NCBI GenBank assembly: GCA_026004035.1
Contig: BPII01000011.1
Span: 11,416-75,415, forward strand
Source of the DNA: Candidatus Sericytochromatia bacterium
GTDB taxonomy: Bacteria; Cyanobacteriota; Sericytochromatia; UBA7694; JACMQJ01
Direction of reading: 5' to 3'
DNA: 64,000 nt
Under the pieces are notes generated by a model. It had not been told where the DNA came from. It saw nothing but the letters and a program-made list of their open reading frames with translations, and did no database searches. The position numbers were made by a program, and so were the translations under genes. Of the stretch, positions 10,251 to 57,404 are shown piece by piece (position 1 is the first letter of the stretch; each line of letters starts with the position of its first letter).

Positions 10251-11001
10251 CTATACGGTAGCTTCTTCTTTTTCTAATTCTTGATTATCATCTTCTTTTG
10301 TTTGTTCTAGTGTTTTATTATTTTTACCTTCTATAATAGCATCAGCTATTTTAGAAGTTATTAGTTTTATAGCCTTCATTGAATCATCATTACTTGGTAT
10401 AGGAAAATCTACTAAATCGGGATTACAATTTGTATCAACCATAGCAACTATTGGAATATTTAATTTTCTAGCTTCAGTAACAGCTAAATGTTCTTTTTCT
10501 GTATCTACTACATATAATAAATCAGGTAATCTATTCATTTCCTTTATACCACCTAATGATTTATTTAACTTACTTATTTCTTTTTCAATTTGCGCTATTT
10601 CTTTTTTATTTAGGTTATCAAAATAACCATTATTTTTTTTATCTTCTAAATCCTTTAAGTAAGCTATTCTTGATTTTATTGTATTAAAATTTGTAAGCAT
10701 ACCACCAAGCCATCTATGATTTACATAAAACATATTTGCTCTTAAAGCCTCATCTCTTATGCAATCTTGTGCTTGCTTTTTGGTTCCAACAAATAATACT
10801 ATTGTTGTTTCATTTGAACACATTTTTTTTACAAATGTGTGTGCTTTTTCTAAATAAGTAAGGGTTTTTTTTAGATTTATTATATAGACTTTATTTTTTT
10901 TCTCCAAAAATGAATTGAGCCATTTTCGGATTCCATTTTCTAGTTTGATGTCCAAAATGAACACCAGCTTGTAAAAGCTCTCTTGTTGTAAGATTTAACA
11001 T
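10251..11001 (-). CDS. rpsB: 30S ribosomal protein S2, interrupted by a +1 frameshift in an A8 run
   Basis: The ATG at 11001 (RBS AAGGAG) gives [35 protein letters not shown], then a stop. The rest of S2 ([11 protein letters not shown]...) continues in the track ORF 10251-10964, offset +1. The junction is the T8 run at 10894-10901 on the + strand, which is A8 in the mRNA sense. Confidence 0.9.
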
Positions 11002-11095
11002 AAAATTCTCCTTTTCACAGTTAAAACACCTGTGCTACTAATCTTTAACCAACTTAACTTAGTTGGACTGTGCAGATTATAAACATAGCACATGT
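11002..11095 (-). promoter_or_regulatory. Structured 5' leader of rpsB (candidate autoregulatory element)
   Basis: The RNA sense contains GUGCUA...UAGCAC (6 bp) enclosing the hairpin CCAACU-AAGUUA-AGUUGG. A second hairpin, CACAG-N9-CUGUG, abuts the SD, and an upstream second CACAG copy could compete for the CUGUG strand. The region is relatively GC-rich within an AT-rich spacer. Confidence 0.3.
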
Positions 11096-11236
11096 TTTAA
11101 AATAATAACAATTTATGATTATATCATAGTTACTAAAATTTTTTTTTTAAAAGATATTATTTTTTGTTAATAAAAATATACTTATATGCAATAAAAAATA
11201 AGTTATTTTGATATAATTTTAATAAATCAGGAGTTT

Positions 11237-11614
11237 TTGAAAGGATTATTTTTGTTTCCAAGTAATGATATTAATTATTTCTTTTTTAAGAATATATCAA
11301 AGTCTGAATTTAAAATATTTATAGAAAAAATAAATAATTTTTTAAATAAAGAAAATATTAATAAAGTTTTAAGTTTAATTACTAACAATAATAATTTTTC
11401 TAATTATCAAAAAATAATAATAATTATATTTCTAGATTTGTCAGGAAATATAAAAGAATGTTCAAAATTAGTAGATTCTTTTGAAGAAGATTTTTTACTA
11501 GAAATAGTAAAAGAAAAGTTTATATATAATAAATTATCTAGAAATATAAAACAATTAATAATAAACAAATTATCAAATAGTAAGTGGATTTCTAATTATA
11601 AAGGTTCTTTATGA
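11237..11614 (+). CDS. Hypothetical protein
   Basis: 125-aa ORF with a TTG start. No recognisable motif. Its 3' end overlaps the convergent TPR gene by 19 nt. Confidence 0.35.
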   Translation: MKGLFLFPSNDINYFFFKNISKSEFKIFIEKINNFLNKENINKVLSLITNNNNFSNYQKIIIIIFLDLSGNIKECSKLVDSFEEDFLLEIVKEKFIYNKLSRNIKQLIINKLSNSKWISNYKGSL

Positions 11615-12513: not shown

Positions 12514-12520
12514 AATAATA

Positions 12521-13978: not shown

Positions 13979-14069
13979 TTTATAACCCCTTAAAAATTTT
14001 ATTGTTTTAAATTCTATATTAAAATATAGACACTAGCAAGTTAGAAAAAATATTTTTTATTTTTTAAAT

Positions 14070-16444
14070 ATGGAAAATAATCAAAAACTTTTAAGAATTT
14101 TAGAAAAAAATTATAAGCTAGAAAGACAAATAGGATCTGGTGGTATGGGTATTGTCTTTCTTGCAACAGATAAAAGATTAGAAAGAAAAGTAGCTATAAA
14201 AGTTTTGAAATTATCAGAAAATAATCAAGACTCAGGAATATCTAAAGAGGAAGTTCTAGAAAGGTTTCTTAGAGAAGCTAGATCAATAGCAAAGTTATCC
14301 CATCCAAATATAGTAAATATATTTGATATAGGAAATGAAGATGAAGTCTATTATATGGTTATGGAATATGTAGATGGATTTGTTTTATCTGACATTCTTA
14401 ATCAAAAAGAAAAAATAGATTATTCGGTTATACTTAATATAATTGTTCAAATTTGTAGTGCTTTAGATTTTGCTCATGAAAATGGAATAATACACAGAGA
14501 TATAAAACCAGCAAATATTATTGTTAGTAAAAAAGGTATAGCAAAATTAATGGATTTTGGAATAGCTACATTAAATAATAAAAAAGAAGCTTATAAACTA
14601 ACTCAAGCAGGTTCTATACTTGGAAGTATTATGTATATTTCACCAGAACAACTTAATGGATTCTAGTGCTGTTACTCCTCAAAGTGATATTTACTCTTTG
14701 GGAATAACTCTTTATGAACTATTAACAGGAGAATTACCTTTTATGTCTGACTCAATAAGTCAAATTGTTTTAAAAATTCTCTCCGAAATGCCTGAAAAAC
14801 CAAGTAAAATAAACCCTGAAATACCTAAAGAACTTGATGATATAATATTTAAAGCTATAAATAAAAAAGCTTCTGAAAGATACCTAAGTGCTTTAGATTT
14901 TGCTAATGATTTAAAAAAATTTATTATTGATTTTGACACAAACTTTATTATACAAAATAATGTAAATAATTCTCATAAAAACCAACAAACAATATTAATT
15001 AATTCTTATAAAGAGGAAAAAACTAGATAATTCTACAGTAATAATTACAAATAAGTTAACTGATACATTAACAAAATTAAAAGAAACAAATACCATAAAA
15101 ACAAAAATAAATGAACAACTAATAAATTCATTAGAAAATGATTTATCATGGATTAAAAATTTAATTTGTGATTGGGAAATAATAAAATCAAATAATAGTA
15201 TTAATGATTTTTTAGAAAAAAAACTTTCTGCAATTATATTAATAAATAATGAAATATTTTTATTTGTTTATGAAGGATTTACAATAGGAGCAGTTAATTC
15301 TGCTAATAGATTACAAGGTCAAGATGTATTTGATAATTTACCAATTGAATATGAAATGACAATATATGTTTCTCCAGAAGATAAATCTTATTTTCCTTTA
15401 ATAATATCAACATTATTTAATTATGAAACACCAATAGATATAAATGTCGATTCTTTAACTGTAGATGTAAGACCTTTAATAGATTCTTTATCATCTAAAG
15501 AAAATCCCTTTACAGGTATAGTCAAATGTTATATTGAAAGTAATATAATATATTATGGTTATTATAAAGGCAAACAAGTATTTAATGTATTAGCTGATAT
15601 TGAAGACGATATTGAAGAAGAAAACTACAAAGATATTAATGTCTTGATATTATATTCTGGAACTTTAATAAATACTTATCCTGTTAAAATAAGTCTTATT
15701 GGACCAAATTTAATAAATCTTTTTAAGGATACTATTATCTTATTGAAATATAACGATAATAATAATAAAAAATTAATTGATATTCTTGATTTAGGAAATG
15801 AAGAAGCACCTAACTTTCTAGTTAAAGAAGTTAAAAATAATACCAACTTAATTATTGAAAATAATAATAAATTTTTAAAAATATTTGATACTGAAATAGA
15901 TACATTAAAAACTATAAAAGAGAGTATTTACTATAAATTTTGTAATTGGCTTATAAATGAATATTTTTATAATATTAATTCTTCATTAAACACATTATCA
16001 TTTAAACCGATATATTCTTTAATACCTTATATAAATAAATTTACTTTTTATCAAAGTTTAAATAATTACTCATTTGAATTTCCTATTTTAATTAAAGGTA
16101 AGTTTAAAAATGATGAAAAGATATTTTTTATTGTTAAAATAGGTAATGGAAGTATACAAGAAGTTAATAAATTTTTAGAAGATATTATCAATTTAAAAAA
16201 CAACTATTTTCTTAAGTCTATTGATTTATCAGGATCATTTTATATATCACTAAGTAAATATGAAAATTATTCTTTAAAAGAATTTTTAGAAAAAACACAG
16301 GATAATAAAAAATCTTTTTTTAGTTTAGATAATACATACAAGTATAAAGGATTTATAAAACTTGGTTATAATAAAGGTATTCAATTACAATTTTTAGAAT
16401 ATATAAACAATAAATTTGAATTAATTGAACCTAAACTACTTTAG
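14070..16444 (+). pseudogene. Ser/Thr protein kinase fused to a ~470-aa uncharacterised C-terminal region, broken by two +1 frameshifts
   Basis: Segment 1 (14070-14666) carries GSGGMGIVF, AIK, HRDIKPANI, DFG and SPEQ. Segment 2 (14620-15030) continues with SDIYSLGITLYELLTG. A stop-free in-frame stretch of more than 100 codons runs from about 15031 into track ORF 15356-16444 and has no ATG/GTG/TTG of its own. The second shift maps to an A6 run at 15017-15022. Confidence 0.75.
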
Positions 16445-16691: not shown

Positions 16692-16706
16692 TTTAAATCT
16701 CCTTTA

Positions 16707-17110: not shown

Positions 17111-17154
17111 ATTAACATTATTAATTTATAAATTAAACAAATATTAATAAATCT

Positions 17155-17545
17155 TTAACTTAAAAACTCGTTTATTGATTTTACTAATTCTCCAGTATTA
17201 ACTGGAATAATAAAATGTTTAATACTTAAATTTGATATTTTTTTTTGATTTGTAACATTATCTTCAAAAGCTTGTGAAATAATTATTATTGGTAAATCTT
17301 TAAAATACTCATTATTTCTAATATGTTTAGCATAATCTATACTTTCTTCAAATGTTTCTTTTGAAATTATTACTAACTTTGGTTCATACATAAAAACTTT
17401 TGCAAGAAATTCTATAAATTCTTCTTCATATAAAATATAATAATCATTTATATTTTTTAAAGATTGTTCTATAAGCTTTTTACTTATCTCTAAGTCAATA
17501 GAAGCTAATATTTTTTTTTTATTTAGAATAGAAGGTTTTTTTCAT
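17155..17545 (-). CDS. Receiver-like (pseudo-receiver) domain protein; N-terminus offset by +1 at an A7 run
   Basis: The track ORF (78 aa) extends upstream in frame as KKPSILNKKKILASIDLEISKKLIEQ... with a CheY-like alternating pattern. An ATG at 17545 joins that frame only if the A7 run (17536-17542) is read as A6. The phospho-acceptor position reads LVIIS and the K-P position reads I-P. Confidence 0.45.
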
Positions 17546-27132: not shown

Positions 27133-28346
27133 CTTTCTTCAATTACATCTAAAATTTTCTCTTTTTTAGGTAATTTAAAATCATCTATTTTATATTTATA
27201 CAAAGGATCTATTTTTTTTATTGTTTCATTAGCTTTATTATAGGAATCTATTAAAATATTTAATTCTATAGAATAGAATAGTAAATTTAGTTTATCTTTT
27301 GAAATTTTATTTTTTAATAAATTTATCTTATTTACTATTTCAAATTCATATCCTGATAATTCTTCAATAGGTTTTAACATAATTTTTTTATCTATTTTTG
27401 AAATTAAATTACTTAATTCTTTTTCTTGAGGAACAATTATACTTTTATAATTATTTACTTGTTTGCTAATATTTTCCAAAGCTATTTTAAATATGTCTTT
27501 TTTTTGCTCTAAAAATTGTATATATTCTTGAGGTTCCTTATTAGAAATTTGGTAATATTCGAAGCTAAGAGGATCAGAATTAGTTAGAACAGGTTTATTA
27601 ATTAACTCTAAAAGTTTATTTTCACATTCCTTATATTCTTTTATAAAATCATTTATTTTTTTTTCTAGTAACAATTTTTTGTCGTTATCATTTTCCACTG
27701 AAAAGTTGTATTTTAAAGTTTCAATTTCTAACTCAATTAATGATGCTTTACTTTTATAAAAAAGTATAGATTCTTGTTGATTTGCTATACCATAATATAC
27801 TTTAATTTCAAAATTTTTATTAAATCTAGAAAGAACATCACTGTCTAATGGAACACTATCAAATAAGTCTTTAATTTCTTTAAATTCAAAATATTTTTCG
27901 TTATCATCTTTTCTTAAAGAAATAGCTTTTTCTATAAAATTATCATCTATTGGATTAATTTTAAATAAATCATTTTCTTGATTTGCTTTGTTGCTTCTTC
28001 TTCAATTCTTTCTTAAATTATTATTTTTTTTATTTTTTAGTTGCTTCGATTTCAATTTTTGAAATATTTCATTTTCTTCCATTGATCTTTGTAAATCAAA
28101 TGTTGCTTCATAAGCTTTTGAAAGCCACTGATGTGGTGTAGGATTATCAGGTTCTTCTTGAGCTGCTTTATTTAGTAATTCTATTGCTTTTTTGTAATCT
28201 CCTTGATTATACATCTTTATTCCTTCTTCAAGGTTGGTATTTGCAAAAGAGTAAGAAGGATAAAATGATACTATTAAAGTAACTAATATAATTTTTATTT
28301 TATTTTTCTTCATTGGTTTCATTTGGATTACTTCCACCTTCATCAA
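27129..28346 (-). pseudogene. Tandem paralogue of 26116-27132, split by a single in-frame TGA
   Basis: Track ORFs 28002-28346 and 27129-27698 lie in the same frame. The 101 codons between them are stop-free, and the only interruption is the TGA at 28002-28004. The downstream piece starts at a GTG with no obvious RBS. Confidence 0.7.
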
Positions 28347-29718
28347 GTATATAAGGGGTTACCATTAATATTAGCTCTACTTCTGATTCTGACCAAGAAT
28401 TAGCACCAAATAGTGGATCCTAAAAATGGTATGTCACCAAGTATTGGTAATTTTATTTGATCCAGTTGATGTATTTTTTCTTTTTAATCCACCTAGTACT
28501 ATTGACTCACCAGATTTAACTTTCATTGTTGTTTTCAGTTGTCTATCTAAGTGTTTCTGGAACAGGATTACCATTAACAATAACATCTTTACCTCTGCTA
28601 CTTATAGATGGGTTTAATTCTAAAGTAATAAATCCTTCTTCAGTATCTATCATAAGGGTTTAACTTTATGACTATCACCTATTTGTATATTTTAATATGT
28701 TTGAGTTGCTCCTGTTGCTGTTTGTGTTGTTTGTATTATAGGGACGTTTTCAGTTGCGGAAAATTCAGCTTCTTTACCACTTTGAGTAGCTATTCTAGGA
28801 TTAGAAAGAATTTTAGCTTTACTATCAGATATTAAAGCATTTAATTCAGCATTAAATTAGCTGTAAAATTTCTTAATGCTTGAAAATCTAATCTTATACC
28901 TGACGTAGTAACAGGAGGAGCACCTGCATTTGTTAATGCTGATGATTGAATAAGAGACAGTTCCAGCCACCAGCACCTTGTTGCTAAGTGCTTGAGCTGA
29001 ATTATTAAATGCCGCACCAAATTGTTTTTGACCATAGCCATAGCTCATACCTAAGTGTTTTAGCAGCTTGTTCAGTTAACTTCTACTAATTTTATTTCTA
29101 TCATAACTTGAGGTATTTTTTGATCTACTATAGATAATACAGACTCTAAAAAATCCATTTGAACTGGTCTTCCAATTACTGATAATATATTATTTTCATC
29201 AGTTGGTATCATTTCAGGTTTTGTTTTACCAGTAGTATAAAATCTTGTCATTCTTTTTAATAGCTTCTGATGGTTTCATATTTTTAATCTTATAATTTTT
29301 CATTATGGAGTCATCTATACCATTTCTTTTAAGTTCTTCTTCATCTGATATAAATATTGTTCTATTTATTTTTCTTGCTGTTAAACCTTTCATTTGTAAA
29401 ACTATACTTAAAGCTTCGCTTAATTTTACATTACTAAGTTCTATTCTATTAATAGAAGATTCTGTTACTTCTTTTTTACCACCTATTACTAAACTATAGC
29501 CTGTTTGATTCACTAAAGCTTTTAATATATCACTTACAATTGCATCACTGACTTTTAAATTAACATTAGGGTCTTTTTCTAACTTTATTAATGGTGTAAC
29601 TGATGTTTTTGTATTATTTACACTTATAGTTTGACAATCTTTCAGCTGCTAAAGTATTTGTAGATATTCCTAAGACTAAACTTAAAGACAAAATTAATTT
29701 TAATGATTTATTCATCAT
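28300..29718 (-). pseudogene. pilQ: Type IV pilus secretin PilQ, multiply frameshifted
   Basis: ATG at 29718 with RBS AAGGAG and the signal peptide MMNKSLKLILSLSLVLG. Fragments in different frames include the N-domain (track ORF 29226-29513), LNALISDSKAKILSNPRIATQSGKEAEF, KLPILGDIPFLG and the C-terminal ELILMVTPYIL. Confidence 0.8.
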
Positions 29719-29734
29719 ATTCAACTCCTTAGAT

Positions 29735-30727
29735 TTATTCTTCTTCAATTAATAATCTTGCCTTATATATTCCATCTGTTATTAAGAACAGATTTTCTAT
29801 TAAAATCTATAGAAACTATTCTTAATCTATCTCCATTATTATTTATTTCATCACCAACTCCTAGTAATTTACTTTCATCATTTACTGATAAAATAGCTAG
29901 TGGTTTAGTTCCTGTAACTATACCTGTTAATTTTAGATCCTTCTGATAAGTCGTTTTGCTTCTGAGACTAATATTTCTTCTTCTGTATTTTTATTATCAA
30001 CAATAATTTTTTTACCCGCATCTGTTTTTGGTATTTGTACAGGAGGTTTAACTTTGCTTTTATTTGTAGTTAATATTTTTATTATTTATATTTTTAGTAC
30101 AATAGATTATTATTTTTAATTTTAACATCATTTTTACTCGCATCAATTTTTGCTTGTTTCAGTAATGCTTCTCTTTCTTTTTCCATTTTCATAGCTAGTA
30201 AAGCTTTCTTTTCTTCTATTAATTCTTGAGGTACTTCTGGTAAGTTTATCTATTTTTGGTGGTTTCAGAGATATAAAAGGATCTACTCTACCACTATTTA
30301 ATCTTGCTTCTAATATTATCTCTTTAAAATCTTTCTGTTTTATTATTTCATCTTTAGGTAACTTCTACTATTTGTTCTATAGTTGTACTTTGAATTGGTT
30401 CAGGTGTTTGTAAAGGTTCAGGTGTTTTTATAACTTTAGGCGTTTCAATTGGTTCAGCTGTTTTATGATATTTCGATTTTTGGTAGTTTCTTTGACTATT
30501 TTTTCAGTTGGTTTTGGTATGGGTTTTATACTTTCTTTAATAGATATCTGATTGCTTTTATTTGATTTGTAGGTTGCGTTGTTATTGTAGGCGCTAACTG
30601 GTTCAGATGTTTGAATTGGATTATATACAATCTCTTCAGGTTCTTCTATGTAGTAAGAAAGTACATGTAATGATACTGCTGAAGTTATCAGTGCTGGTAA
30701 TATTATAGCATGTTTATTTATATTCAC
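29735..30727 (-). pseudogene. PilP-like pilus assembly protein with extended N-terminal region, frameshifted
   Basis: The N-terminal TM ORF is 30428-30727. The C-terminal piece LKLTGIVTGTKPLAILSVNDESKLLGVGDEI...RLRIVSIDFN resembles the PilP beta-domain. The pieces are in different frames. Confidence 0.45.
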
Positions 30728-30730
30728 TAC

Positions 30731-31400
30731 TTAATTTCCTCCTTCAGGTAAAAGGTAAGCTCTTAAATTAAGAGTTACTTTTAAAGCACTAAATTTATAA
30801 TCATTATCAGTTATAGGTGATAATGATATAGAAGCGGGATTTATAGCTCTTTGGTATTTTTCTAAATCTTTAAATAAACTTATTATATTAGGATAACTTG
30901 ATTCTAATGAAAGGTTTAAAGGAGTTTGACTTAAATTTAAATCAGCAGGTACACCACTTGCTAAATTTGAGGTAAATTAACTCTTTGTATAGAACCTGGG
31001 ACTAAATCAAATAAATCAGATTTATTATTTAATTCAACAAATTTTCCATATCATATATTAATGATGGAAGATTTTCTTTTGTAGGTATTCTTTCTTGTAG
31101 TTTTGCTATTTCTTTATTTAAATCTTCTATTGCTTTTTCTGTTTCATCTATTTTTCTATATCTTTTAGTTGTAGGGTTATAACCTAATTTTGTTTCTAAT
31201 GCTTGATTATCAGAAGATAGTTTTTCATTTTCTTCTAATAAAGTTTGATATTCTGTATATATTGGATATAATAAGTAATATCCTCCACCTAATAAAATTA
31301 GTAGAGATAAAACTCCACCAGCTATTAACTTATAAGATTCAGGTATATTTTTAAAAGAATCTGTATTTATTGTTATACCAAATACTTTTGTTTCTGCCAT
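30731..31400 (-). pseudogene. pilO: Type IV pilus assembly protein PilO, two frameshifts
   Basis: A 123-aa N-terminal ORF (TM plus coiled coil) is followed by VELNNKSDLFDLVPGSIQRVNLPQ and then NLASGVPADLNLSQTPLNLSLESSYPNIISLFKDLEKYQRAINPASISL..., each in a different frame. Confidence 0.6.
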
Positions 31401-31436
31401 TTTTCACCTAATTCATATTAATTTCAAATCTTAGAT

Positions 31437-32097
31437 TAAACTTTAGTTACAGATGAAAATTCTCTATCAACAGCTAAATTATTTTTTAATTTTGAAGAAT
31501 CTACTTTTTCTAAATCTCTTATTTTATATCACTTGTCTTTTTTGTATAATCTAAAACTACATTACTAAATCTTGGAGAATCTTGTATATTTGCAAGAAAT
31601 ATAGCTACTGTTTTATGATCAAAAGTTTCTCCAGACATAGTAATTTTATTTTCATTTATATCTATTTTATCAACCCAAAATTAGATGGTATTCTATCTCT
31701 GATTTCTTCAAGTAATTCTGACCATTTAAAATTACTTCCACTAGCCCATGCTAATATATCTCTTTTTTTCTCTACATTAGTTTTACAGCAAGTTTTTCTG
31801 TAAGAAGTTTATCTTGTTGCTCTAACTCAGCTTTTCTTCTTTCTAATTCTTGTTTTCTTTCAGCTTCTTCATCTCTTAAACTAGTTAAAACTAATATAAC
31901 CTACTGATAAAGCTCATTAAAGATATAAATAAAAATAAAACTGATAATATAATTCCTTTGCTTACTTTAGTTCCAGATATAGTTTTTTCTATTTCTTCTC
32001 TTACTTGATAACCAAGAAGATTTATATTTATTGATACAGTTAAATTTGTTCCTGTAGCAGATTTACTACCATCTTCTTTTTTTTCTAAATCTATCAC
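31437..32097 (-). pseudogene. pilN: Type IV pilus assembly protein PilN, frameshifted
   Basis: The N-terminal ININLLGYQVREE plus a TM helix (68-aa ORF). Later fragments (WSELLEEIRDRIPSNFWVDKIDINENKITMSGETFDHKTVAIFLANIQDSPRFSNVVL) are in other frames. Confidence 0.55.
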
Positions 32098-32140
32098 AGC
32101 TAAAAATTTTTACTCCTTAATCATTATATTTATTCTAACA

Positions 32141-32905
32141 TTATAAATTTAATTTTTCTAAATATAGTTCAAATAAATAATTATTGCTAAAAAAACTTAT
32201 TAAACTTCCAAGAGCTAAAAATGGTCCAAAAGGAAAATAATCACTTTTTTTTCTATATATAGTAAAGAGCTATTCCAAATAAAGAACCCAATAAAAAACC
32301 TATAAATAAAGTACCAAATAAATAGTTAATTCCAAGCCAAGCACCTATCATTGTTGTTAATGTTACATCTCCCAAACCCATTCCTTCTTTTTTTAAAAAA
32401 AATAAACTCCCCTTAGCAATTAAAAACAATAATTAAATATCCTAAAACTGCTCCTAAAATAGAATCAATAATTTTATTATCTAAAAAATTATAAATTATA
32501 CCTATTGCAATACCTGGATAAGTTAAGCTATCTAATATTAACATATAATCTATATCTATCCATGATATTACGATAATAAGACATATAAAATATGTAATAA
32601 AAATCCATTTCCAACTTATACCAAAAGTAAAGAAAGCAATACATAATAATAGAGCTGTTATAAATTCATTTAAAGGATATCTTATACTTATTGTCTTCTT
32701 TACAATATCTACATTTACCCCCTAAAATAATCCAACTTAAAATTGGTATATTATCATAAAACTTTATATCATTATTACATTTAGGACATTTTGAATTTGG
32801 ATATATTATAGATTTTTCTCTTGGAAGTCTATATATAACAACATTTAAAAAACTTCCAAGCATAGAACCAAAAATAAAAATTAATATAATATTTAAAATA
32901 TTCAT
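32141..32905 (-). pseudogene. pilD: Prepilin peptidase (A24 family) PilD, frameshifted
   Basis: The N-terminal Zn-finger region (CPKCNNDIKFYDNIPILSWIILGGKCRYC) is in the 79-aa ORF. The catalytic-region fragment KKEGMGLGDVTLTTMIGAWLG and the C-terminal PFGPFLALGSL are in other frames. Confidence 0.75.
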
Positions 32906-32989
32906 TGAAACCTATTTTGTATTTTATAACCTTAAATAAATTATAATGCTGTGATTATATACACATAAAATATTACTTTTAATTAAGTG

Positions 32990-33530
32990 TTAATTTACCC
33001 CTCTTGATGATAGTAATACAGGAAAAGTTTTAATAAAAATTTTTAAATCAAGACAAAATGATAAATTATTTATATATTCTATATCATATTTTAATTTAGT
33101 ATCAATACTTAAATCATCTCTTCCATGTATTTGTGCCCAACCTGTAAGTCCTGGTTTTACTTTAAAAACATTTTTTTTGTTCTTCTGTATATGTTTTTAC
33201 TATTGAAGGAACTTCTGGTCTAGGTCCTATTAAACTCATTTCACCTTTTAAAATATTTATTAATTGAGGTAATTCATCTATACTAGTTCTTCTTAATATT
33301 TTACCTACTTTTGTTATTCTAGGATCATTATCTTGAGTAAAACTGGTCCAATTTTATCAGCATTTACAACCATTGTTCTAAATTTATAAATTAAAAACTC
33401 CTTTTGATTTTTACCAACTCTTATTTGTTTAAAAAATATTGGTCCATTATCTGTAATTTTATTAGTATAGATACTATTATAAATAAAGGTATTAATAATA
33501 TTAATGAAAATAAAGAAAAAAAAAATCTAA
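32990..33530 (-). pseudogene. Undecaprenyl-phosphate sugar phosphotransferase (bacterial sugar transferase family), multiply frameshifted
   Basis: The fragments [65 protein letters not shown] and KPGLTGWAQIHGRDD lie in three frames. Confidence 0.75.
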
Positions 33531-33566
33531 TAATGGTTTAATTTTTATATACATTAAAATATAATT

Positions 33567-34885
33567 TTATATACCTATACAAAAATACTCAAAACCTAAT
33601 TGTTTCATTGTGTCTAATTCATACTGATTTCTACCATCAAATATAACAGGATTTTTTCAATAATAATTTCATCTTATTAAAATTAGGTCTTCTAAATTGT
33701 GGCCATTCTGTAACAAGTACAAGAAAGTCAGCATTTTCTAAACATTTGTACATATCTTGATTAAATTCAATTCTTAAATTGTCTTTAAAATACAATTTAG
33801 TTTTTTCAATAGCTTCTGGATCAAAAGCTGATATATAGGCATTTAAAACTTAAAAGTTTTTCTATTATTTTTAAAGAAGGAGCTTCTCTTATATCATCAG
33901 TATAAGGTTTATATGAAAGTCCCCAAATTGCAACTTTCATATTTTCAATACTATTGAATCTTTTCAAGATTTTATTTATTAGTATTAATTTTTGTTTATC
34001 ATTAACTTCCTTAGTAGCTTTAATAATTTTAGAACTATAGCCTTTTTCTTCAGCTATATAGTCAAGAATTTTTATATCTTTTGGAAAACAAGAACCACCA
34101 AAGCCAATACCTGGAAATAAAAATTTATGACCTATTCTACTATCATAAGACATTCCTTTTCTAACATTATTAATATTTGCTCCTAAAATCTCACATATAT
34201 TTGCTATTTCGTTTATAAAAGAAATTTTCATTGCTAAAAAAGCATTAGAAGCATACTTTGTCATCTCAGCTGATTTTATATCCATTTCAAGTATTGGATT
34301 ATCATTTCTAACAAATGGCAAGTATAATTCTTTCAGTACTTTTAAAGATTTCTGTGTTTCAAAACCTATTACTATTCTATCAGGTTTCATAAAATCTTCA
34401 ATTGCTGATCCTTCTTTAAGAAATTCAGGATTACTTAAAACATCAAATTCTAATTTTAAATTTCTTTTTTCTAAAGAATCTTTTATAATATTTTTTATAG
34501 TTTCACAAGTCCCTACTGGTGCTGTAGATTTATTAACAATAATTTTATAATCATTTATATTTTCTCCAATATCTTTAGCTACTTTTAAAAGATTTTTTAA
34601 ATTTGGTTTTCCTTCTTCATTAGAAGGAGTATCTACTGTTATAAAAACAATTGAAGAATTATCTAAAGCATATTTAATATTTGTAGAAAAAACTAATCTC
34701 TTTTCTTTTATATTTTTTTTTATTAATTCTTCAAGTCCTTTTTCATATATTACTGATTGACCTTTTGATAATTTATTTATTTTATCTTCATTAATATCTA
34801 CACAAATAACATTATTGCCCATTTCGGCAAAACATGTGCCTGTAACTAATCCAACATAACCAGTACCTATTATACAAAGATTCAT
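33567..34885 (-). pseudogene. ugd: UDP-glucose 6-dehydrogenase, C-terminal third displaced by two +1 frameshifts
   Basis: The 354-aa ORF has IIGTGYVGLVTG and GFGGSCFPKD. The continuation is NAYISAFDPEAIEKTKLYF...VLVTEWPQFR, then NPVIFDGRNQYELDTMKQLGFEYFCIGI* in shifted frames. The second shift is in a T6 run at 33652-33657 (A6 in the mRNA sense). Confidence 0.8.
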
Positions 34886-38690: not shown

Positions 38691-38712
38691 TTTTTTTTTT
38701 TTTTTTTTTTTT
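38691..38712. repeat. T22 homopolymer
   Basis: 22 consecutive T in the spacer upstream of hppA. Confidence 0.95.
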
Positions 38713-39250: not shown

Positions 39251-39410
39251 TAATTTAATACCTTGAACATTTTAATATAATTTGACAAACAAGATTAATA
39301 TATGATATCTCTAAATTTTGCTAATTTTGATGACAAAAAATTAAATAAAACTCAAAGAAAACTATTCTCAATTATCAATTATAAACTTAGAATTCATAAT
39401 GAAAAACTAC
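39251..39410. repeat. ~158-bp repeat, copy 1 (inverted relative to 53012-53168)
   Basis: The reverse complement of 39313-39410 appears identical to 53012-53109 (about 98 nt). The remaining ~60 nt match with scattered substitutions and a 2-nt indel. Confidence 0.85.
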
Positions 39411-39563: not shown

Positions 39564-41550
39564 CTAAAGAATAAAGTTCATTAAATTATAAGTTAAAAAA
39601 GCTGATATATAAGCAAATATTGTCATATAAATAAACATATAAATAGAATATTTCCAATGTCCTGTTTCTTTTTTAACAATAACTAGTGTGCTCATACATT
39701 GACAACAAAAAGCAAAAAATATTAATAATGAACAAGCAAGAGGAAGAGTATATATAGGTTTATTTGTTATTGGATCTTTTTCTTGTAAAAGTCTTTCTTT
39801 CAAAGATTTTGAGTTTTCATCTACATCACCTAAAGAATATATAGTTCCTAATGCAGATATAAAAAGTTCTCTAGCACCAAAAGCTACACTTATTCCAACA
39901 CCTATCTTCCAATCATAACCTAAAGGTCTTATTATAGGCTCAATAGCTTTTCCAAATTGTCCTATAAAAGAATTTTCAAGTTTTATTGAAGCTATTTCTT
40001 CACTTGATTTATTTATTAGTAATTCTTCTTTTGGATTAGGATAAATAGATAAAAACCATATTATTATTGATAATAAAAATATTATACTACCAGCTTTTTT
40101 TAAAAAAACTTTTCCTTGTCTAATCATTTGTTTATAAGCAACTTTTAATCTTGGTATTTGATATAAAGGCATTTCCATAAAGAAAGACTTAGATTTACTT
40201 TTAAAAAAAGATAATCTAAATATTTTTGCAAAAATTAAAGCAATAAAACTACCTAAAAAATACATAAAAAATAAAGCTAATCCTTGAGTATCTATAAATC
40301 CAAATATTTTATATGAAGGTATAAATATTCCTATAAGTAAGACATAGACAGGTAGTCTAGCACTACAAGTTATAAATGGTAAAACCATCAATGTTGCCAT
40401 TCTTTCAGCTTTATCAGGTATTGTTCTAGTAGCCATAATTGCAGGCACAGAACAAGCAAAACCAGAGAGAAAAGGTAAAAATGCTTTACCATTTAAACCA
40501 AAGTATGACATAAATTTATCGGTTATAAAAGCAGCTCTTGATATATAACCAGATTGTTCCATTAAACTTAATAAGAAAAATAATATCATTATTTGTGGTA
40601 AAAATACTAATACTCCTCCAACCCCAGCAAAAATTCCATCAACTACAAGGCTTTTTAAAGTTTCATTTTCTATAAATTTACCTACAAAATTACCAATTTC
40701 TGATATTGAGTTTTCTAAAAAACTCATTAATGGTTGAGAAAATGTATATAATGATTGAAATACTAGAAAAAATATTAATACAAAAAATATAAATCCTTTT
40801 ACAGGATGTAGTAAAACTTTATCAATTTTATATGATATATCAGCTATTTTTAAAGTTTTATTACCTATAACTTCATTAATTATATATCTAGCTTGCAACT
40901 GATATTTTTTCATTTTTTCAATTATATATTCTTCATCAACTAAATTAATGTTTTGTGGATTACTAGGTAATAAACTCAATGACTTATTAGTAATTTCAAG
41001 TGATTTTATAACATTATTATTTGCAGTTTTTTTAGCTTCATTATGCAAAAAATTACTTATTTTTTTTTTTTGCTTCTTCTTCATTAATTGTTGAACATAA
41101 TAAAACCTTTAAACCTAAATATTCTTCTAACTTTTTTAAATTTATATCTTTATATGATAATAAATCAGATTTATTAACTATTACTAAAATATCTTCATTA
41201 TTTATTATTTCTTTAACTGCTAAAATTAAAGATATACCAGCTTCTAACTTTGATGAATCTACTATTATTACAACTTTACTAAAGTCTTTAATATTTTCAT
41301 TTAGTTTTAATAGTGTCCCTATTGTAACAGCTTCATCTAAAGTTGTAGGTATTAGATTATATACTCCAGGTAAATCTATTATTTTTATTTTTTGTTCTTC
41401 AGAATAATTTTTATTATCACTTAATTCAGCTATTGCATAATCTACACTTATACCTGAATAGTTTGAAACTTTTCTTGATTTTCCAGAAAGTATGTTAAAT
41501 ATACTTGATTTTCCAGAATTTGGAAATCCAAGAAGAAGAAAGTTTTTCAT
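39564..41550 (-). CDS. feoB: Ferrous iron transporter FeoB, split by a +1 frameshift in an A12 run
   Basis: The G-domain ORF is 41053-41550 (GFPNSGKSS, DLPG, NKSD). The membrane-domain ORF is 39564-41084. They overlap at the T12 run 41060-41071 (A12 in the mRNA sense). Reading A11 gives a continuous ...EEEAKKKISNFLH... Confidence 0.85.
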
Positions 41551-51622: not shown

Positions 51623-51648
51623 AATTTGTATTGAAATAATTCTTTTAT

Positions 51649-52068: not shown

Positions 52069-52518
52069 ATTATTTATGTTAGGTATCCTAACAAAATATT
52101 ATTCTATTTAAAAATAATAAATCAATGACTAGAATCATTTTATAAATTGATATAAATCAATGATTTTTAGTAATAATTTGAATTTATTGATATTTATCTA
52201 TACTCAAACTTTTGTATTTTGCATTTTTTTTTTCTAAAACTCAAATATTCTATAGTAGAAGTTTATAAGAATTAAAAATCATAGTAGATAGTTCTGATAA
52301 TCCTGTCATAGAGTTAGATAGTTCTTTAAATGTTAGTTGAGTACCTTCATAATGGACGACAATTCCTTTAGATATGTTATTTTGAAGAGTTGTAGAAATA
52401 TTTTGTATATCATTTTGTAATCTTTGCCTATACTCAAATTCAGTTTCAGAAGGTGCTTTTGGTAGTAATGGTAGTTGTAAATCTAAAAAAAAACAGAGAG
52501 TTGTCTTAAATCTTTTGT

Positions 52519-53035: not shown

Positions 53036-53168
53036 GTTTATAATTGATAATTGAGAATAGTTTTCTTTGAGTTTTATTTAATTTTTTGTCATCAAAATTA
53101 GCAAAATTTGGGGATATCATATTAATCTTGTTTGTTGAATTATGTTAATGTTTAAGGTATTGTAAATA
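53012..53168. repeat. ~158-bp repeat, copy 2
   Basis: See copy 1 (39251-39410). Confidence 0.85.
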
Positions 53169-53243
53169 TTTTTACTTTTTAAATAACCTTGAGTAATTAA
53201 AAATTATATGCTAATTTATAAATAATATTATTTTTTTAAAATT

Positions 53244-55169
53244 ATGCAATTATTTCTCACTGATCCTTTATTAGAAGGTTTAAATGATCAACAGATAGAA
53301 GCTGTTAAATCTGTTGAAAGACCAATACAATTAGTAGCAAGTGCAGGAAGTGGAAAAACAACGGTACTAACAAGAAGAATAGCATATATGTTAAATGAAG
53401 GAATAAAACCAGAAAATATATTTGCTGTAACTTTTACAAAGAAAGCTGCTGATGAAATGATTAGTAGATTAAAATCTTTAGTTAATAATAAAAAATTAGT
53501 TGAAAAAATTTCAATAGGAACTTATCACTCGTTACTTTTACAGATAATAAAAAAATATTTTAAAGAATTAAATTTTACAAAAGAACCCACTTTATGTCTT
53601 GAAAATAGACAAATGAATATTATTAAAACTATAATAGATGATTTAAATTCAGAAATATTAAAGGAAGAAGCAATTTCATATATTGGAAAATTAAAAAACA
53701 TGGGAATTTTTTCAAGTGAATTTTCTAATATGATAAATAAAAATATTAATCCAATAAATATAGGTAAAGACTACATTTTAGATATCTCTAATATTTATAA
53801 AAAGTATCAAGATTATTTATTGGAAAATGACTTAATAGATTTTGATGATATTTTATTATTAACAAGAAAATTGTTACAAGATAATCAAAAAGTTAGATAT
53901 GAAATTCAAAGTAAATATAAATATGTCCTTGTTGATGAGTTTCAAGATGTTAATAAAGTTCAATATGATATAAGTAGAATAATAGCTTCTCCTGAAAATA
54001 ATATATTTGTAGTAGGTGATGATTATCAAAGTATATATGAGTTTAGAGGTTCTGATGTTAATATAATCCTAAATTTCTCAAAAGATTATAAAAATACTAA
54101 ATTAATAAAACTAGAAAGTAATTATAGATCAACACCAGAAATAATAAGTATTTCTAATAAATTAATAAAAAATAATTTAGGACAAATAGAAAAAAATGTA
54201 AAATCTGAAAATAAAAGCATTGCAGATTCTGTTAATTATTATGTTGCTGAAGATATATATGATGAAAGCTTTTATGTAGCAAAACAAATAAGAAGCTATA
54301 TTTTTAAAGGTATAAAACCTGAAGAAATAGCTGTTTTGTATAGAACACATTCTCAATCAGCTTATCTTGAAGAAGATTTAGTAGCTTGGAATATACCATA
54401 TACTATACATAAAAATACAAGTTTTTATGATTTGAACGAAGTTCAAGACTTATTAGCTTTTTTAAGATTAGCTAGAAATAAAGAGGATGATTTACAAATA
54501 GGATTTGAAAGACTTTTTAAGTTTTTCAATTTAAATAAGATTACTTATGATTTTATAAAAAATAATTTTAAAAGTAGTGGTAATTTAATGAGTGCTTTTA
54601 TAGAAACATCTTACTCAAATATACATCCAGGTCAAAGAATTTTACTAAACAAAATGATAGATAATATATTAAGATGGCAAAAAATTGCTGAAAATAATGA
54701 TGTTGCTTATGTTATAGATTATATTTTAGAAAGTTCAGGATATAAGAAAAGACTAGAAAATAAACATACTGAATCAGCTGAAAATTCTTTAAATATTTTA
54801 GAATCTATGTATGATAAAGCTATTAAATGGAAATCTAAAAATATAGATGATTTTTTTAAAGAAATACAAACTCAAGAAATAAAAAAGAAAGAAAATAAAA
54901 ATAAGAAAAATGCAGTTCAATTAATGACAATACATAATTCTAAAGGTATGGAATTTGACGTTGTATTTTTAATAGGATTAGAAGAAAATAAACTACCTAG
55001 TAGAAAATCAATAGCTGATGGTAATATACAAGAAGAAAGAAGATTATGTTATGTTGCTTTAACAAGAGCTAGAAAATATTTACATATAACAAGAGCAAAG
55101 CAGAAAAACTCATTTGGAAAAGTAAATAAATATGAAGTTTCAAGATTTTGGCATGAAATTAATTCATAA
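53244..55169 (+). CDS. UvrD/PcrA/Rep-family ATP-dependent DNA helicase
   Basis: ASAGSGKTTVLT (Walker A), VDEFQDVN, NYRST, TIHNSKGMEFDVVFL and ERRLCYVALTRARKYL. Confidence 0.9.
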   Translation: MQLFLTDPLLEGLNDQQIEAVKSVERPIQLVASAGSGKTTVLTRRIAYMLNEGIKPENIFAVTFTKKAADEMISRLKSLVNNKKLVEKISIGTYHSLLLQIIKKYFKELNFTKEPTLCLENRQMNIIKTIIDDLNSEILKEEAISYIGKLKNMGIFSSEFSNMINKNINPINIGKDYILDISNIYKKYQDYLLENDLIDFDDILLLTRKLLQDNQKVRYEIQSKYKYVLVDEFQDVNKVQYDISRIIASPENNIFVVGDDYQSIYEFRGSDVNIILNFSKDYKNTKLIKLESNYRSTPEIISISNKLIKNNLGQIEKNVKSENKSIADSVNYYVAEDIYDESFYVAKQIRSYIFKGIKPEEIAVLYRTHSQSAYLEEDLVAWNIPYTIHKNTSFYDLNEVQDLLAFLRLARNKEDDLQIGFERLFKFFNLNKITYDFIKNNFKSSGNLMSAFIETSYSNIHPGQRILLNKMIDNILRWQKIAENNDVAYVIDYILESSGYKKRLENKHTESAENSLNILESMYDKAIKWKSKNIDDFFKEIQTQEIKKKENKNKKNAVQLMTIHNSKGMEFDVVFLIGLEENKLPSRKSIADGNIQEERRLCYVALTRARKYLHITRAKQKNSFGKVNKYEVSRFWHEINS

Positions 55170-55174
55170 AAAAA

Positions 55175-57404
55175 ATGAAGATACTAATATTTTCAATATA
55201 TAATCAACCTGAACAATTAATAAGTTCTTTTAAAGTATATGAAAGTAATAAAAATGAAGATGTGTATTTTTTAAATTGTTCAAATTCTTTAAAATTTTGT
55301 GATATTAATTCTGATAATTATTTTCAAAAATGTTTTGAATGTATTGCTGACAAATTTTTTTTGTTTAGATTATTTAATATTGAAGAAAAAAAATTAATTG
55401 ATATTGATAGTTATGAAAAAATAAATGTTGATATTCCTTTATTTGATAGTATAGACGATTTAAAATCATTTACTTATAATAATATAAATTATGGTTTATA
55501 TGCTTATAAATCTGTTGTAAATATTACAAAGAAAGAAAAATTTAATATTAAATTTGTAAGATACCTTATAAAAAATATAATAAATGAAGCAATAAATTTT
55601 TATAATAAAATTTCAAATATTATTGATAATATAAAACCTGATAAATTTTATATATATAAGAATAATAGTATAATTTACTTACCGATTATAGAACTTGCTT
55701 TAATCAAAAATATTGAAACAATAACTTTTTATGTAGATAATAATGTTTTATATTTTTACAATGCAAAAACTAATGAACAATTAAATTACAATATTTTTTT
55801 AGAAAAAATTGATAATGAATATCTTATTAATGGCCAAAAAATTAGTAAAATTATTTATGCTAGAACTAAAAATGAAATTTTAAAGGCTATCGTTAAGTAT
55901 AATCATGACTTGTTTTCTAATAACGTTGAAACTTTTAAATTTTTTAGAGATTTAGAAAAACAAAATTTTTGGACAGAAGAAGAATCTAATATTATCAAAA
56001 ATAAAGTTTTAGAAATATATAATAAATTAGATAAAAAGAGCAAAGAAGCAAAAGAAAATGTAAAAATAAGTGCATGTATGATAGTTAAAAATGAAGAGAA
56101 AAATTTAGAAAGATGTCTTAATAGTATAAAAAATATTGTAGATGAAATAATAATATTAGATACAGGTTCAACAGATAATACCATTAATATAGCAAAGAAA
56201 TATACTTCAAAAATTTTTGAATATAAATGGAAAGACGATTTTTCTGATGCAAGAAATAAAAGTATTTCTTATGCAAAAAATGATTGGATACTAATAATAG
56301 ATGCTGACGAAGAGCTAACAGAAAATACTCAAAAAAATCTTTTAATAACAATATATGATGAACCATTATTTAAAGAAGAACTTGTATTTTGGTTTAAATG
56401 TTTTAATAAATATCCAAATGAACAAGAAAGCACTTTTTACTTTAAACACTTTTTATTCAATAAAAAACATGGATTTGTATTTGAAGGAAAAGTTCATGAA
56501 TATTTGGTTAATCCTAATCAAAAAGAGAAAGATAAAGTTTTTAAAAAAACATCTACATCAATTCACAGTAAATCATTATTGTAATACTGAAAAAAACAAA
56601 GAAAAATCTAAATATTATTTACAAATTCTAGAAGATCAGTTAAATTTTGAAAAAACTTTAAAAGGTAAAATATCTATATTAAGTCATTTAGCTAATGAAT
56701 ATCAAAAAGTAGGAGATTCTGATAAAGCATTTAAAACTCTTTTAGAATGTCATAATTTGTTCCAAAAAGATAAAGAATTAAAATCTACATTAACATATAT
56801 TTCCAATTTAATAAGTATATCAGCAAATTTAATATTTAATCAGCTTAATTTTGAAAAAGCAAGAAAATATGTTGATGAAGCTCTTGAGTTAATAGAAGAT
56901 CATAACTTTACAGATGCTTTTTATTTAAAAGCTCTTATAGAACATAATACAAATAATTATCAAAAAGCTATTGATTTATACATTAAACTAATAAATCTTT
57001 TTAGAAGTAGTAATTTTGATAAAGAAAGTTCTTATGGCTTAAGTTCAAAAGGTAAAACATTATATCCTTTTACAGTAATACAACTTTATAAGCTTTATAT
57101 GACTCTTAATAAAGAAAGCTTAGCTTTAAATGTTTTACTAGGTAATGAGAATAATTACTATTTAGTTAATATGTATGTAATAAAACATTTTCTTTTAAAG
57201 AGAGATTTAAAAAATTCTGCAAATGCTTATTTTAGAAACATATTAATAAGTCAAAAAAATAAAGATTTATTGTACAAATTATTAAGTGAAAATAAATATA
57301 AGCAAGCTATTTATCAAATGATTAATGAATTGCTAAACACTAAAGAAGTATTTTCTGATGATGATAAAGAAGAATTACAAAAATTACTACAAAGTATTAT
57401 TTAA
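55175..57404 (+). CDS. Unknown N-domain / GT2 glycosyltransferase / TPR fusion, +1 frameshift at an A7 run
   Basis: The GT2 core is ISACMIVKNEEKNLERCLNSI...ILDTGSTDNT...IDADEEL. ORF 55175-56584 and ORF 56355-57404 join as ...KDKVFKKHLHQFTVNHYCNTEKNKEKSKYYLQILE if the A7 run at 56543-56549 is read as A6. The C-terminus is TPR-like. Confidence 0.75.

What the first reader, a model, noticed from the sequence alone, without database searches (positions are those of the whole stretch)
10894..56549. Recurrent pattern: six gene disruptions are all +1 shifts in sense-strand poly(A) runs
Wherever I could localise a frameshift to a homopolymer, it has the same form: one surplus A in an mRNA-sense A-run. 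The six cases are below.
- rpsB: A8, 10894-10901
- Kinase/C-domain junction: A6, 15017-15022
- Receiver-like gene start: A7, 17536-17542
- ugd: A6, 33652-33657
- feoB: A12, 41060-41071
- GT2-TPR: A7, 56543-56549
These genes are on both DNA strands, yet in every case the run is A, not T, in the coding sense. AT-rich insect endosymbionts are known to tolerate frameshifts in poly(A) tracts because RNA polymerase slippage restores the frame in a fraction of transcripts. The same bias could also arise from a systematic insertion error of the sequencing or assembly method. Other breaks, such as those in pilO and the first kinase shift, are not in long runs, so both processes may be present.
Basis: partly seen in the sequence, partly recalled or inferred. 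Interest (0 to 1): 0.75.

Follow-up and report, generated by a model that had tools for sequence, protein, structure and literature searches.

The report
Long-read homopolymer insertion errors, not slippage
The six "extra A" gene breaks are real in this sequence, but near-identical independent assemblies of the same bacterium carry one base fewer and intact genes at every site, so the pattern is most likely a PacBio HiFi assembly artefact and not biology.

Summary
All six runs are at the stated coordinates. Each is A in the coding sense and one base too long. The window matches a DDBJ-deposited Candidatus Sericytochromatia MAG (24% GC), very probably the HiFi/metaFlye assembly of Katase hot-spring sediment.

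Logan assemblies of two read sets, DRR290133 (D) and SRR27215045 (S), are at least 99.97% identical to the window outside one divergent island. At every one of the six sites, D or S has the run one base shorter and the gene intact:
- rpsB: A7
- kinase: A5
- receiver: A6
- ugd: A5
- feoB: A11
- GT2-TPR: A6

Across 36 kb of comparison the window has 8 extra bases in coding sequence and none missing, against only 5 substitutions. D and the window disagree with each other at four homopolymers.

The "always A, never T" bias is simply the base rate. 74% of coding A/T runs of 6 nt or more are sense-A, so six out of six has P = 0.16-0.25. Extra bases in short sense-T runs also occur (ugd T4 in the window; T4 in the GT2-TPR gene in D).

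Published tests show Sequel II CCS reads over-call A/T homopolymers. Transcriptional slippage mostly adds bases, so it would rescue a surplus-A break poorly. Only the feoB A12 and the kinase GG, both shared with D, could be real variants.

The parts
10894..10901 (-). rpsB run: A8 in the sense strand of the window. This is one base too long and splits ribosomal protein S2.
   Evidence: Frames shown. The Logan DRR290133 contig L001 has A7 and an intact 249-aa Ribosomal_S2 gene. It differs from the window by 1 SNP and this indel over 7,348 bp.
14658..14659 (+). First kinase break: GG in the window against a single G in the in-frame allele. It is not a long run.
   Evidence: S contig L002 has one G and an intact 790-aa kinase. 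D contig L001 shares GG with the window. This could therefore be a true variant of the hot-spring population, or an error shared by two assemblies of the same reads.
15017..15022 (+). Kinase/C-domain run: A6 in the window against A5 in the in-frame allele.
   Evidence: L002 (SRR27215045) has 0 mismatches over 4,083 bp and only three 1-bp gaps, and this is one of them. The kinase is intact there: 790 aa with Pkinase and DUF7527.
17536..17542 (-). Run at the start of the receiver-like gene: ATG followed by A7 in the window, against A6 in the in-frame allele.
   Evidence: L002 has A6 and a 129-aa ORF starting at that ATG.
33845..33848 (-). First ugd break: sense-strand T4 in the window against T3.
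   Evidence: S contig L088 has T3. Its intact 438-aa Ugd (P0001) is 100% identical to my repaired translation.
33652..33657 (-). Second ugd break: sense A6 in the window against A5.
   Evidence: L088 (SRR27215045) has A5 and an intact 438-aa Ugd carrying all three UDPG_MGDP_dh domains.
41060..41071 (-). feoB run: sense A12 in the window against A11 in the in-frame allele.
   Evidence: S contig L006 has A11 and reads through (341 aa or more). D contig L005 is 100% identical to the window over 4,330 bp, including the A12 and the split feoB of 165 + 506 aa.
56543..56549 (+). GT2-TPR run: sense A7 in the window against A6.
   Evidence: D contig L087 has A6 and a fused 686-aa GT2-TPR gene. The same contig carries its own extra T (T4 against the window's T3 at 57206-57208), which truncates the gene downstream.
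28000..33545 (-). Strain-variable type IV pilus and sugar-transferase island: sugar transferase, pilD, pilN, pilO, orf305, secretin and a TPR protein. It has about 25 frame switches (a rough count from tblastn segments).
   Evidence: Pfam finds only fragments. tblastn with the intact genes of the relative L090 shows in-frame segments that keep 86-91% amino-acid identity between the frame switches. The island is 11% divergent in nucleotides from S (L089), while the flanks are about 100% identical. The extra bases in the window here are not in homopolymers.

Best explanation
**Proposed explanation.** The six surplus-A breaks, together with the ugd T4 break and most of the breaks in the pilus island, are single-base insertion errors. 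They sit in an unpolished, low-coverage PacBio HiFi (CCS) metagenome assembly of a very AT-rich (24% GC) Sericytochromatia genome.

**Inferred steps:**
1. CCS consensus calling over-calls A/T homopolymer length by one base.
2. At low coverage, the long-read assembler's consensus keeps some of these over-calls.
3. In a genome whose proteins are rich in lysine (AAA), about three quarters of coding A/T runs are A in the sense strand. Errors spread evenly over the runs therefore look like a sense-poly(A) rule.
4. Every over-call in a coding run gives the same +1 frame break.

**What is shown directly:**
- the one-base excess at each site
- the in-frame alleles in near-identical assemblies
- the excess of insertions over deletions
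- the base rate of sense-A runs

**What is inferred:**
- that the window was built from the HiFi read set DRR290133
- that coverage was low
For: **1. Independent assemblies have the shorter, in-frame run at all six sites.**

| Site | Window | In-frame allele |
|---|---|---|
| rpsB | A8 | A7 (D) |
| GT2-TPR | A7 | A6 (D) |
| kinase | A6 | A5 (S) |
| receiver | A7 | A6 (S) |
| ugd | A6 | A5 (S) |
| ugd (first break) | T4 | T3 (S) |
| feoB | A12 | A11 (S) |

The genes at these sites are full length in D or S: 249-aa S2, 790-aa kinase and 438-aa Ugd. The Ugd is 100% identical to my repaired translation.

**2. The ratio of indels to substitutions is not what evolution gives.** I compared 28.7 kb with D and 7.4 kb with S. 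There are 5 substitutions. The window has 8 extra bases in coding sequence and none missing (P = 0.008).

**3. D and the window disagree with each other at homopolymers.** The four sites are rpsB A7/A8, GT2 A6/A7, T4/T3 at 57206 and T23/T22 at 38691. They share other oddities (feoB A12, kinase GG). This fits two consensus calls made from one noisy read set.

**4. Provenance.**
- The window ORF is identical to GIW22635.1, 'MAG: Candidatus Sericytochromatia bacterium', on a 78,297-bp contig.
- DRR290133 is described as hot-spring reads that were assembled with a long-read assembler.
- The Katase hot-spring study used Sequel II HiFi reads above Q20 and metaFlye 2.8.3. Its main text does not contain the word 'polish'. 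The data went to DDBJ.

**5. Published error behaviour.** Sequel II CCS allele calls at A/T homopolymers are 'biased toward insertions' (PMC11878640).

**6. The sense-A bias equals the base rate**.

**7. The pilus island looks recently intact.** It keeps 86-91% amino-acid identity to a relative between its roughly 25 frame switches. An old pseudogene would not look like this.
Against: - I could not inspect reads or coverage.
- The feoB A12 and the kinase GG are reproduced in the k-mer assembly of DRR290133, so most reads there probably carry them. A 2-nt G run is not a typical HiFi error site, so at least that break may be a real variant of the hot-spring population.
- The sequencing technology and origin of SRR27215045 are unknown to me.
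- S differs from the window by 11% in the pilus island, so it is a different strain. Real strain differences at the other sites cannot be formally excluded.
- The link from the window to DRR290133 and metaFlye is circumstantial.
- Insertions at runs as short as A5 to A6 are uncommon for HiFi unless coverage is very low.
Confidence: 0.8

Rival explanations
1. The surplus-base alleles are genuine mutations of one strain in the hot-spring population. They arose by replication slippage at A/T runs in an AT-rich, possibly repair-poor lineage, and they are simply pseudogenes or low-frequency variants with no rescue mechanism.
For: - The feoB A12 and the kinase GG appear in both the window and the DRR290133 k-mer assembly.
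- S is demonstrably another strain, with the pilus island 11% divergent.
- D contig L004 ends at 33955, next to a SNP at 33956. This suggests a strain branch point.
Against: - rpsB is an essential gene, and its break is absent from D.
- Eight frameshifting insertions against 5 substitutions in 36 kb, with no deletions, does not look like a natural mutation spectrum.
- The window and D disagree at four homopolymers.
- Between the frame switches, coding sequence in the island is conserved at 86-91% amino-acid identity.
Confidence: 0.13
2. The breaks are real and fixed, and they are tolerated because RNA-polymerase slippage (or ribosome sliding on poly(A)) restores the frame in a fraction of products. 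This is the mechanism described for Buchnera and Blochmannia.
For: - The genome is very AT-rich (24% GC) with many A runs.
- All breaks in long runs lie in sense-A.
- The feoB tract, at 11-12 A, is long enough for appreciable slippage. Insertion frequency rises exponentially with run length (PMC5574713).
Against: - In-frame alleles exist at all six sites in assemblies that are at least 99.97% identical, so the frameshifts are neither fixed nor conserved.
- Five of the six runs are only 6-8 nt long.
- Restoring the frame needs a 1-nt deletion or a 2-nt insertion. In A/T runs transcription errors are insertions, 80% of them of one nucleotide, and deletions are rarely in homopolymers.
- The sense-A bias equals the base rate.
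- Breaks also occur in sense-T runs and outside runs.
- The source is a sediment MAG, not an endosymbiont.
Confidence: 0.03
3. The feoB A11/A12 tract alone is a true hypermutable, phase-variable switch that turns ferrous-iron uptake on and off within the population.
For: - Both lengths exist in public data: A12 in the window and D, A11 in S.
- The tract lies between the G domain and the membrane domain of FeoB, so one base changes expression of the membrane part.
Against: - An 11-12 nt homopolymer is exactly where CCS length calling is least reliable.
- There is one observation per sample and no read-level frequencies.
- I have no evidence for similar tracts in relatives.
Confidence: 0.08

Closest known systems
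Insertion-biased homopolymer length errors of PacBio CCS/HiFi reads, carried into unpolished low-coverage long-read MAGs and seen as fragmented gene calls
   Same: - The errors are single-base indels concentrated in A/T homopolymers.
- Insertions far outnumber deletions (8:0).
- Genes are split into adjacent ORFs in the +1 frame.
- The breaks are not reproduced in other assemblies of the same organism.
- Break density is much higher in a probably low-coverage, strain-variable island.
   Different: - Two of the breaks (feoB A12, kinase GG) are reproduced by a k-mer assembly of the presumed same reads.
- Several affected runs are short (A5 to A6, T3 to T4).
- The island insertions that could be localised are not in homopolymers.
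Poly(A)-tract frameshifts rescued by transcriptional slippage in Buchnera and Blochmannia. I name Tamas et al. 2008 and Wernegreen et al. 2010 from my own knowledge. The slippage spectra are from Traverse & Ochman 2017, PMC5574713.
   Same: - The genome is AT-rich.
- The frameshifts lie in sense-strand A runs inside otherwise conserved genes, including an essential one.
   Different: - The frameshifts are not fixed or conserved. In-frame alleles exist in near-identical genomes.
- The runs are mostly 6-8 nt, not 9-10 nt or longer.
- The direction (a surplus base) is the one that slippage insertions do not correct.
- The organism is not a host-restricted endosymbiont.
- No RNA evidence is available.
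Phase-variable contingency loci controlled by simple-sequence repeats
   Same: feoB has a long A11/A12 tract whose length differs between samples and switches the reading frame.
   Different: - Only one of the six sites has a tract long enough.
- There is no evidence that both alleles coexist as real DNA.
- The other genes, rpsB and ugd, are housekeeping genes and not typical contingency genes.

Membership tests
Slippage-rescued poly(A) frameshifts (endosymbiont type) | The frameshifted run length is the true, fixed genomic sequence. | tested here: not met
   The shorter in-frame run is found at all six sites in assemblies at least 99.97% identical to the window. Two sites (rpsB, GT2-TPR) differ between the window and the assembly of what is probably the same read set.
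Slippage-rescued poly(A) frameshifts (endosymbiont type) | The tract is long enough for efficient slippage (about 9-10 A or more). | tested here: not met
   Run lengths are 8, 6, 7, 6, 12 and 7, so only feoB qualifies. Insertion frequency rises exponentially with run length (PMC5574713).
Slippage-rescued poly(A) frameshifts (endosymbiont type) | The frameshift is conserved across related lineages, that is, maintained by selection. | tested here: not met
   Strain S has intact kinase, receiver, ugd and feoB. Ugd homologues at 77-83% identity are full length, 438-441 aa.
Slippage-rescued poly(A) frameshifts (endosymbiont type) | mRNA shows run-length heterogeneity that restores the frame. | not testable with these tools
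   No RNA data are available. From the literature, the correction needed here (1-nt deletion or 2-nt insertion) is the minority outcome in A/T runs.
PacBio CCS homopolymer insertion artefact in a long-read assembly | The sequence derives from PacBio HiFi reads without short-read polishing. | tested here: inconclusive
   The evidence is circumstantial:
- GIW22635.1, a DDBJ-type MAG protein, is identical to the window ORF.
- DRR290133 is described as hot-spring reads that were assembled with a long-read assembler, and its Logan contigs share idiosyncratic alleles with the window.
- The Katase hot-spring study used Sequel II HiFi and metaFlye 2.8.3 and does not mention polishing.
PacBio CCS homopolymer insertion artefact in a long-read assembly | The errors are single-base indels enriched in A/T homopolymers and biased toward insertions. 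| tested here: met
   Six of 8 breaks lie in runs of 6 nt or more, against 4.2% of coding bases (P = 1e-7). The window has 8 extra bases and 0 missing (P = 0.008). The published insertion bias for Sequel II CCS at A/T homopolymers is in PMC11878640.
PacBio CCS homopolymer insertion artefact in a long-read assembly | The errors are not reproducible in independent assemblies or reads. | tested here: met
   All six sites are shorter in D or in S. The exceptions are feoB A12 and kinase GG, which are reproduced in D.
Phase-variable contingency locus | A long simple-sequence tract with ON and OFF alleles coexisting in one population. | not tested
   Only feoB A11/A12 is a candidate, and the two alleles come from different samples. 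No read frequencies are available.

The most novel reading that the evidence does not exclude
The two breaks reproduced in both assemblies from the hot-spring sample (feoB A12 and kinase GG) are genuine. On this reading, feoB in this free-living, extremely AT-rich Sericytochromatia carries a hypermutable A11/A12 tract. The tract acts as a phase switch, or the gene is partly rescued by transcriptional or ribosomal slippage. That would extend poly(A)-tract frameshift tolerance beyond insect endosymbionts.
Probability: 0.08. Interest if true: 0.4.

Novelty: not a real feature. Interest (0 to 1): 0.1.

Why it matters
As biology it does not matter much. The apparent rule of "+1 shifts only in sense poly(A)" comes from two ordinary things combined:
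- an insertion-biased homopolymer error of the sequencing chemistry
- the roughly 3:1 excess of sense-A over sense-T runs in a lysine-rich, 24% GC genome

It does matter as a caution.
- This deposited MAG carries frame-breaking errors about every 5-8 kb in core genes, and about every 250 bp in a strain-variable island.
- Pseudogene counts, "genome decay" inferences or recoding claims made from it, or from similar low-coverage AT-rich HiFi MAGs, would be wrong without read-level checks.

If the breaks had been real, a disrupted essential rpsB in a free-living bacterium would have demanded a recoding mechanism. That is why the check was worth making.

Tried and rejected
**Searches that failed or gave nothing useful**
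- The genome-contig scan with GatA found no relative above 60% identity; the best hits were cyanobacterial, Poribacteria and Gastranaerophilales MAGs. This gave no syntenic relatives for comparing run lengths, and the species is apparently not among those representatives.
- Exact-protein look-ups found nothing for window ORF 57358-58425 (probably a different start-codon call), for P0006, and for island ORF 31029-31400. The last result is consistent with the window's island allele being too rare in DRR290133 to be assembled, but it does not prove this.
- A paper search for SRR27215045 found nothing, so its origin and platform remain unknown.

**Ideas considered and dropped**
- *Programmed +1 ribosomal frameshifting at AAA-TAA in rpsB.* Rejected because the same-sample assembly simply has A7.
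- *The 28-33.5 kb island as an old, eroded pilus pseudogene cluster.* Rejected because the segments between frame switches keep 86-91% amino-acid identity to a relative.
- *The sugar-transferase break at 33170 as another A8 over-call.* This was my first guess, and it was wrong. S has the same A8, and the window has an extra T after it.

Full report
**1. The observation**

On the plus strand they read T8, A6, T7, T6, T12 and A7, which is A in the coding sense in every case.

Three-frame translations show that each break needs the reading frame to move +1 downstream. Two examples:
- rpsB reads "...FIFGEKK*" and continues as "[11 protein letters not shown]..." in the next frame.
- feoB reads "...EEEAKKKNK*" and continues as "...ISNFLHNEAKK...".

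So the description is accurate. It is not complete, however:
- The kinase has an earlier break at a GG dinucleotide (14658-14659).
- ugd has an earlier break in a sense-strand T run (plus strand 33845-33848).
- The stretch from 28.0 to 33.5 kb has no long ORFs at all.

**2. Is "always A, never T" more than chance?**

No. Using open frames of 100 codons or more as the coding map, sense-A runs of 6 nt or more number 257 and sense-T runs 91, which is 74% A. The share rises to 80% at 7 nt or more and 87% at 8 nt or more.
- The chance that six run-associated breaks are all sense-A is 0.16.
- Matched to the six observed lengths, it is 0.25.
- Fisher's test of 6/257 against 0/91 gives P = 0.35.

This is the expected make-up of a lysine-rich, AT-rich proteome. 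Two other features are significant:
- Breaks concentrate in homopolymers. Six of the 8 breaks localised outside the island lie in runs that make up 4.2% of coding bases (P = 1e-7).
- The direction is biased: the window has 8 extra bases and none missing (P = 0.008).

**3. Independent assemblies of the same organism**

Exact-protein look-ups found Logan contigs from two read sets, DRR290133 (D) and SRR27215045 (S). Outside the island they match the window almost perfectly.

| Site | Window | D | S | Gene in D or S |
|---|---|---|---|---|
| rpsB | A8 | A7 | not covered | intact 249-aa S2 (D) |
| kinase, first break | GG | GG | G | intact 790-aa kinase (S) |
| kinase run | A6 | not covered | A5 | same 790-aa kinase (S) |
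| receiver-like start | A7 | not covered | A6 | 129-aa ORF (S) |
| ugd, first break | T4 (sense) | not covered | T3 | intact 438-aa Ugd (S) |
| ugd run | A6 | not covered | A5 | same 438-aa Ugd (S) |
| feoB | A12 | A12 | A11 | reads through (S); split 165 + 506 aa (D) |
| GT2-TPR | A7 | A6 | not covered | fused 686-aa gene (D) |

Further details:
- D contig L001 covers 7,348 bp with 1 SNP and 1 indel. The indel is the rpsB run.
- S contig L002 covers 4,083 bp with 0 mismatches and three 1-bp gaps. These are the receiver run, the kinase run and the first kinase break.
- The intact S Ugd is 100% identical to the protein I had reconstructed by deleting those two bases.
- D contig L005 is 100% identical to the window over 4,330 bp, including the A12.
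- D contig L087 carries an extra T of its own in a sense-T run (T4 against T3 at 57206), which truncates the GT2-TPR gene.

The consolidated tally covers 28.7 kb against D and 7.4 kb against S. There are 5 substitutions. The window has 8 extra bases in coding sequence and none missing, and there are two sites where D has the extra base.

Every one of the six listed sites therefore has a one-base-shorter, in-frame allele in an assembly that is at least 99.97% identical.

**4. Provenance**

- The truncated 354-aa Ugd ORF of the window is identical to GIW22635.1, [quoted passage not shown], on a 78,297-bp contig.
- DRR290133 is described as hot-spring reads that were assembled with a long-read assembler, and it is cited as a DDBJ dataset.
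- The Katase hot-spring sediment study produced Sequel II HiFi reads (above Q20) and assembled them with metaFlye 2.8.3. Its main text does not contain the word "polish". It deposited the data in DDBJ under DRA011957/PRJDB11609.

I infer, but cannot prove, that the window is a contig of that assembly and that D is a k-mer assembly of the same reads. This would explain two things:
- The window and D share idiosyncratic alleles (feoB A12, kinase GG).
- They nevertheless disagree at four other homopolymers: rpsB, GT2-TPR, T3/T4 at 57206 and T22/T23 at 38691.

**5. Mechanism**

[quoted passage not shown] It attributes the bias to the CCS algorithm (PMC11878640). That matches the 8:0 insertion excess and the restriction to A/T runs seen here.

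Indels in homopolymers that survive into long-read consensus are a known cause of fragmented gene calls, particularly at low coverage. This is reported for Nanopore data in PMC9262707.

**6. Why the slippage reading fails**

Transcriptome-wide measurements in E. coli and Buchnera (PMC5574713) show that:
- transcription errors in A/T runs are insertions, 80% of them of a single nucleotide
- their frequency rises exponentially with run length
- deletions are rarely associated with homopolymers

A surplus-A allele needs a 1-nt deletion or a 2-nt insertion to be read in frame, so it is the poorly rescued kind. Five of the six runs are also only 6-8 nt long.

In addition, the frameshifts are neither fixed nor conserved (section 3). 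The organism is a sediment MAG that encodes pili, a eukaryote-type Ser/Thr kinase and polysaccharide synthesis, so it is not a host-restricted endosymbiont.

**7. The island at 28.0-33.5 kb**

- Pfam finds only fragments here: prepilin peptidase in three pieces, sugar transferase in two, and a secretin STN domain.
- A relative from ERR7850097 (L090) has the intact order pilD, pilN, pilO, orf305, secretin, TPR, orf338.
- tblastn of those proteins against the window gives many short segments in alternating frames, about 25 switches by a rough count. The in-frame segments keep 86-91% amino-acid identity. This argues for very recent or artefactual indels and against an old pseudogene cluster.
- Strain S has an intact 253-aa PilD, but it is only 89% identical in nucleotides to the window, although the flanks are about 100% identical. 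The island is therefore a strain-variable locus.
- Relative to S, the window has 5 extra and 0 missing bases across pilD, none of them in a homopolymer.
- D contig L004 stops at 33955, next to a SNP at 33956. No D contig was found for an island ORF.

My inference is that the window follows a rare strain variant here, covered by one or very few reads near the Q20 limit. An error rate of about 0.4% would fit that. This part remains unverified.

**8. What may be real**

- The kinase GG and the feoB A12 are reproduced in D. A G-to-GG change is not a typical HiFi error, so the hot-spring population may truly carry a frameshifted kinase.
- feoB A11/A12 could be a hypermutable tract.
- Either could equally be an error shared by two assemblies of the same few reads.

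**9. Verdict**

- The sense-strand asymmetry is the base rate.
- The homopolymer association and the insertion bias are real but technical.
- The finding is best filed as an assembly artefact (confidence about 0.8).
- There is a small residual chance that one or two sites are genuine strain variants.

Noticed in passing
window 28000-33545 (minus strand): The type IV pilus and sugar-transferase island has about 25 frame switches (a rough count). It is 11% divergent in nucleotides from strain S, although the flanking genes are about 100% identical. Segments between the switches keep 86-91% amino-acid identity to an intact relative (L090). It is probably a strain-variable locus assembled from very few reads.
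   Followed up: partly
window 14658-14659: The first kinase break (GG against G) is shared by the window and the DRR290133 k-mer assembly but is absent from SRR27215045. It is not a homopolymer-type error, so it may be a genuine frameshift variant of the hot-spring population.
   Followed up: partly
window 38691-38712: An intergenic T22 run, the longest homopolymer in the window, lies near the start of the H+-pyrophosphatase gene. It is T23 in the DRR290133 assembly.
   Followed up: no
window 57206-57208; L087 4126-4129: The DRR290133 Logan contig has its own extra T in a sense-T run (T4 against the window's T3). This truncates the GT2-TPR gene to 686 aa and shows that the same kind of error hits sense-T runs.
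   Followed up: yes
window 53080-53161 and 39257-39342: A repeat of about 85 bp is present in two copies in opposite orientation, about 88% identical. One copy lies upstream of the UvrD-like helicase gene and the other in the gap downstream of feoB. Its function is unknown.
   Followed up: no
window 28002-28004: A single in-frame stop splits the homologue of the 396-aa TPR protein into 118-aa and 290-aa frames. It sits in a low-complexity Lys/Asn-rich linker. I did not resolve whether it is a substitution or a pair of compensating indels.
   Followed up: no
window 33170: The sugar-transferase break sits next to an A8 run but is not a run-length change. Strain S has the same A8, and the window has an extra T after it.
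   Followed up: yes
whole window: At 24.2% G+C this is unusually low for a Sericytochromatia MAG from hot-spring sediment. The best GatA matches among 185,579 species-representative genomes are only 60% identical or less, so no close representative is present there. Ugd relatives at 77-83% identity do exist in JGI, MGnify and Logan data.
   Followed up: no
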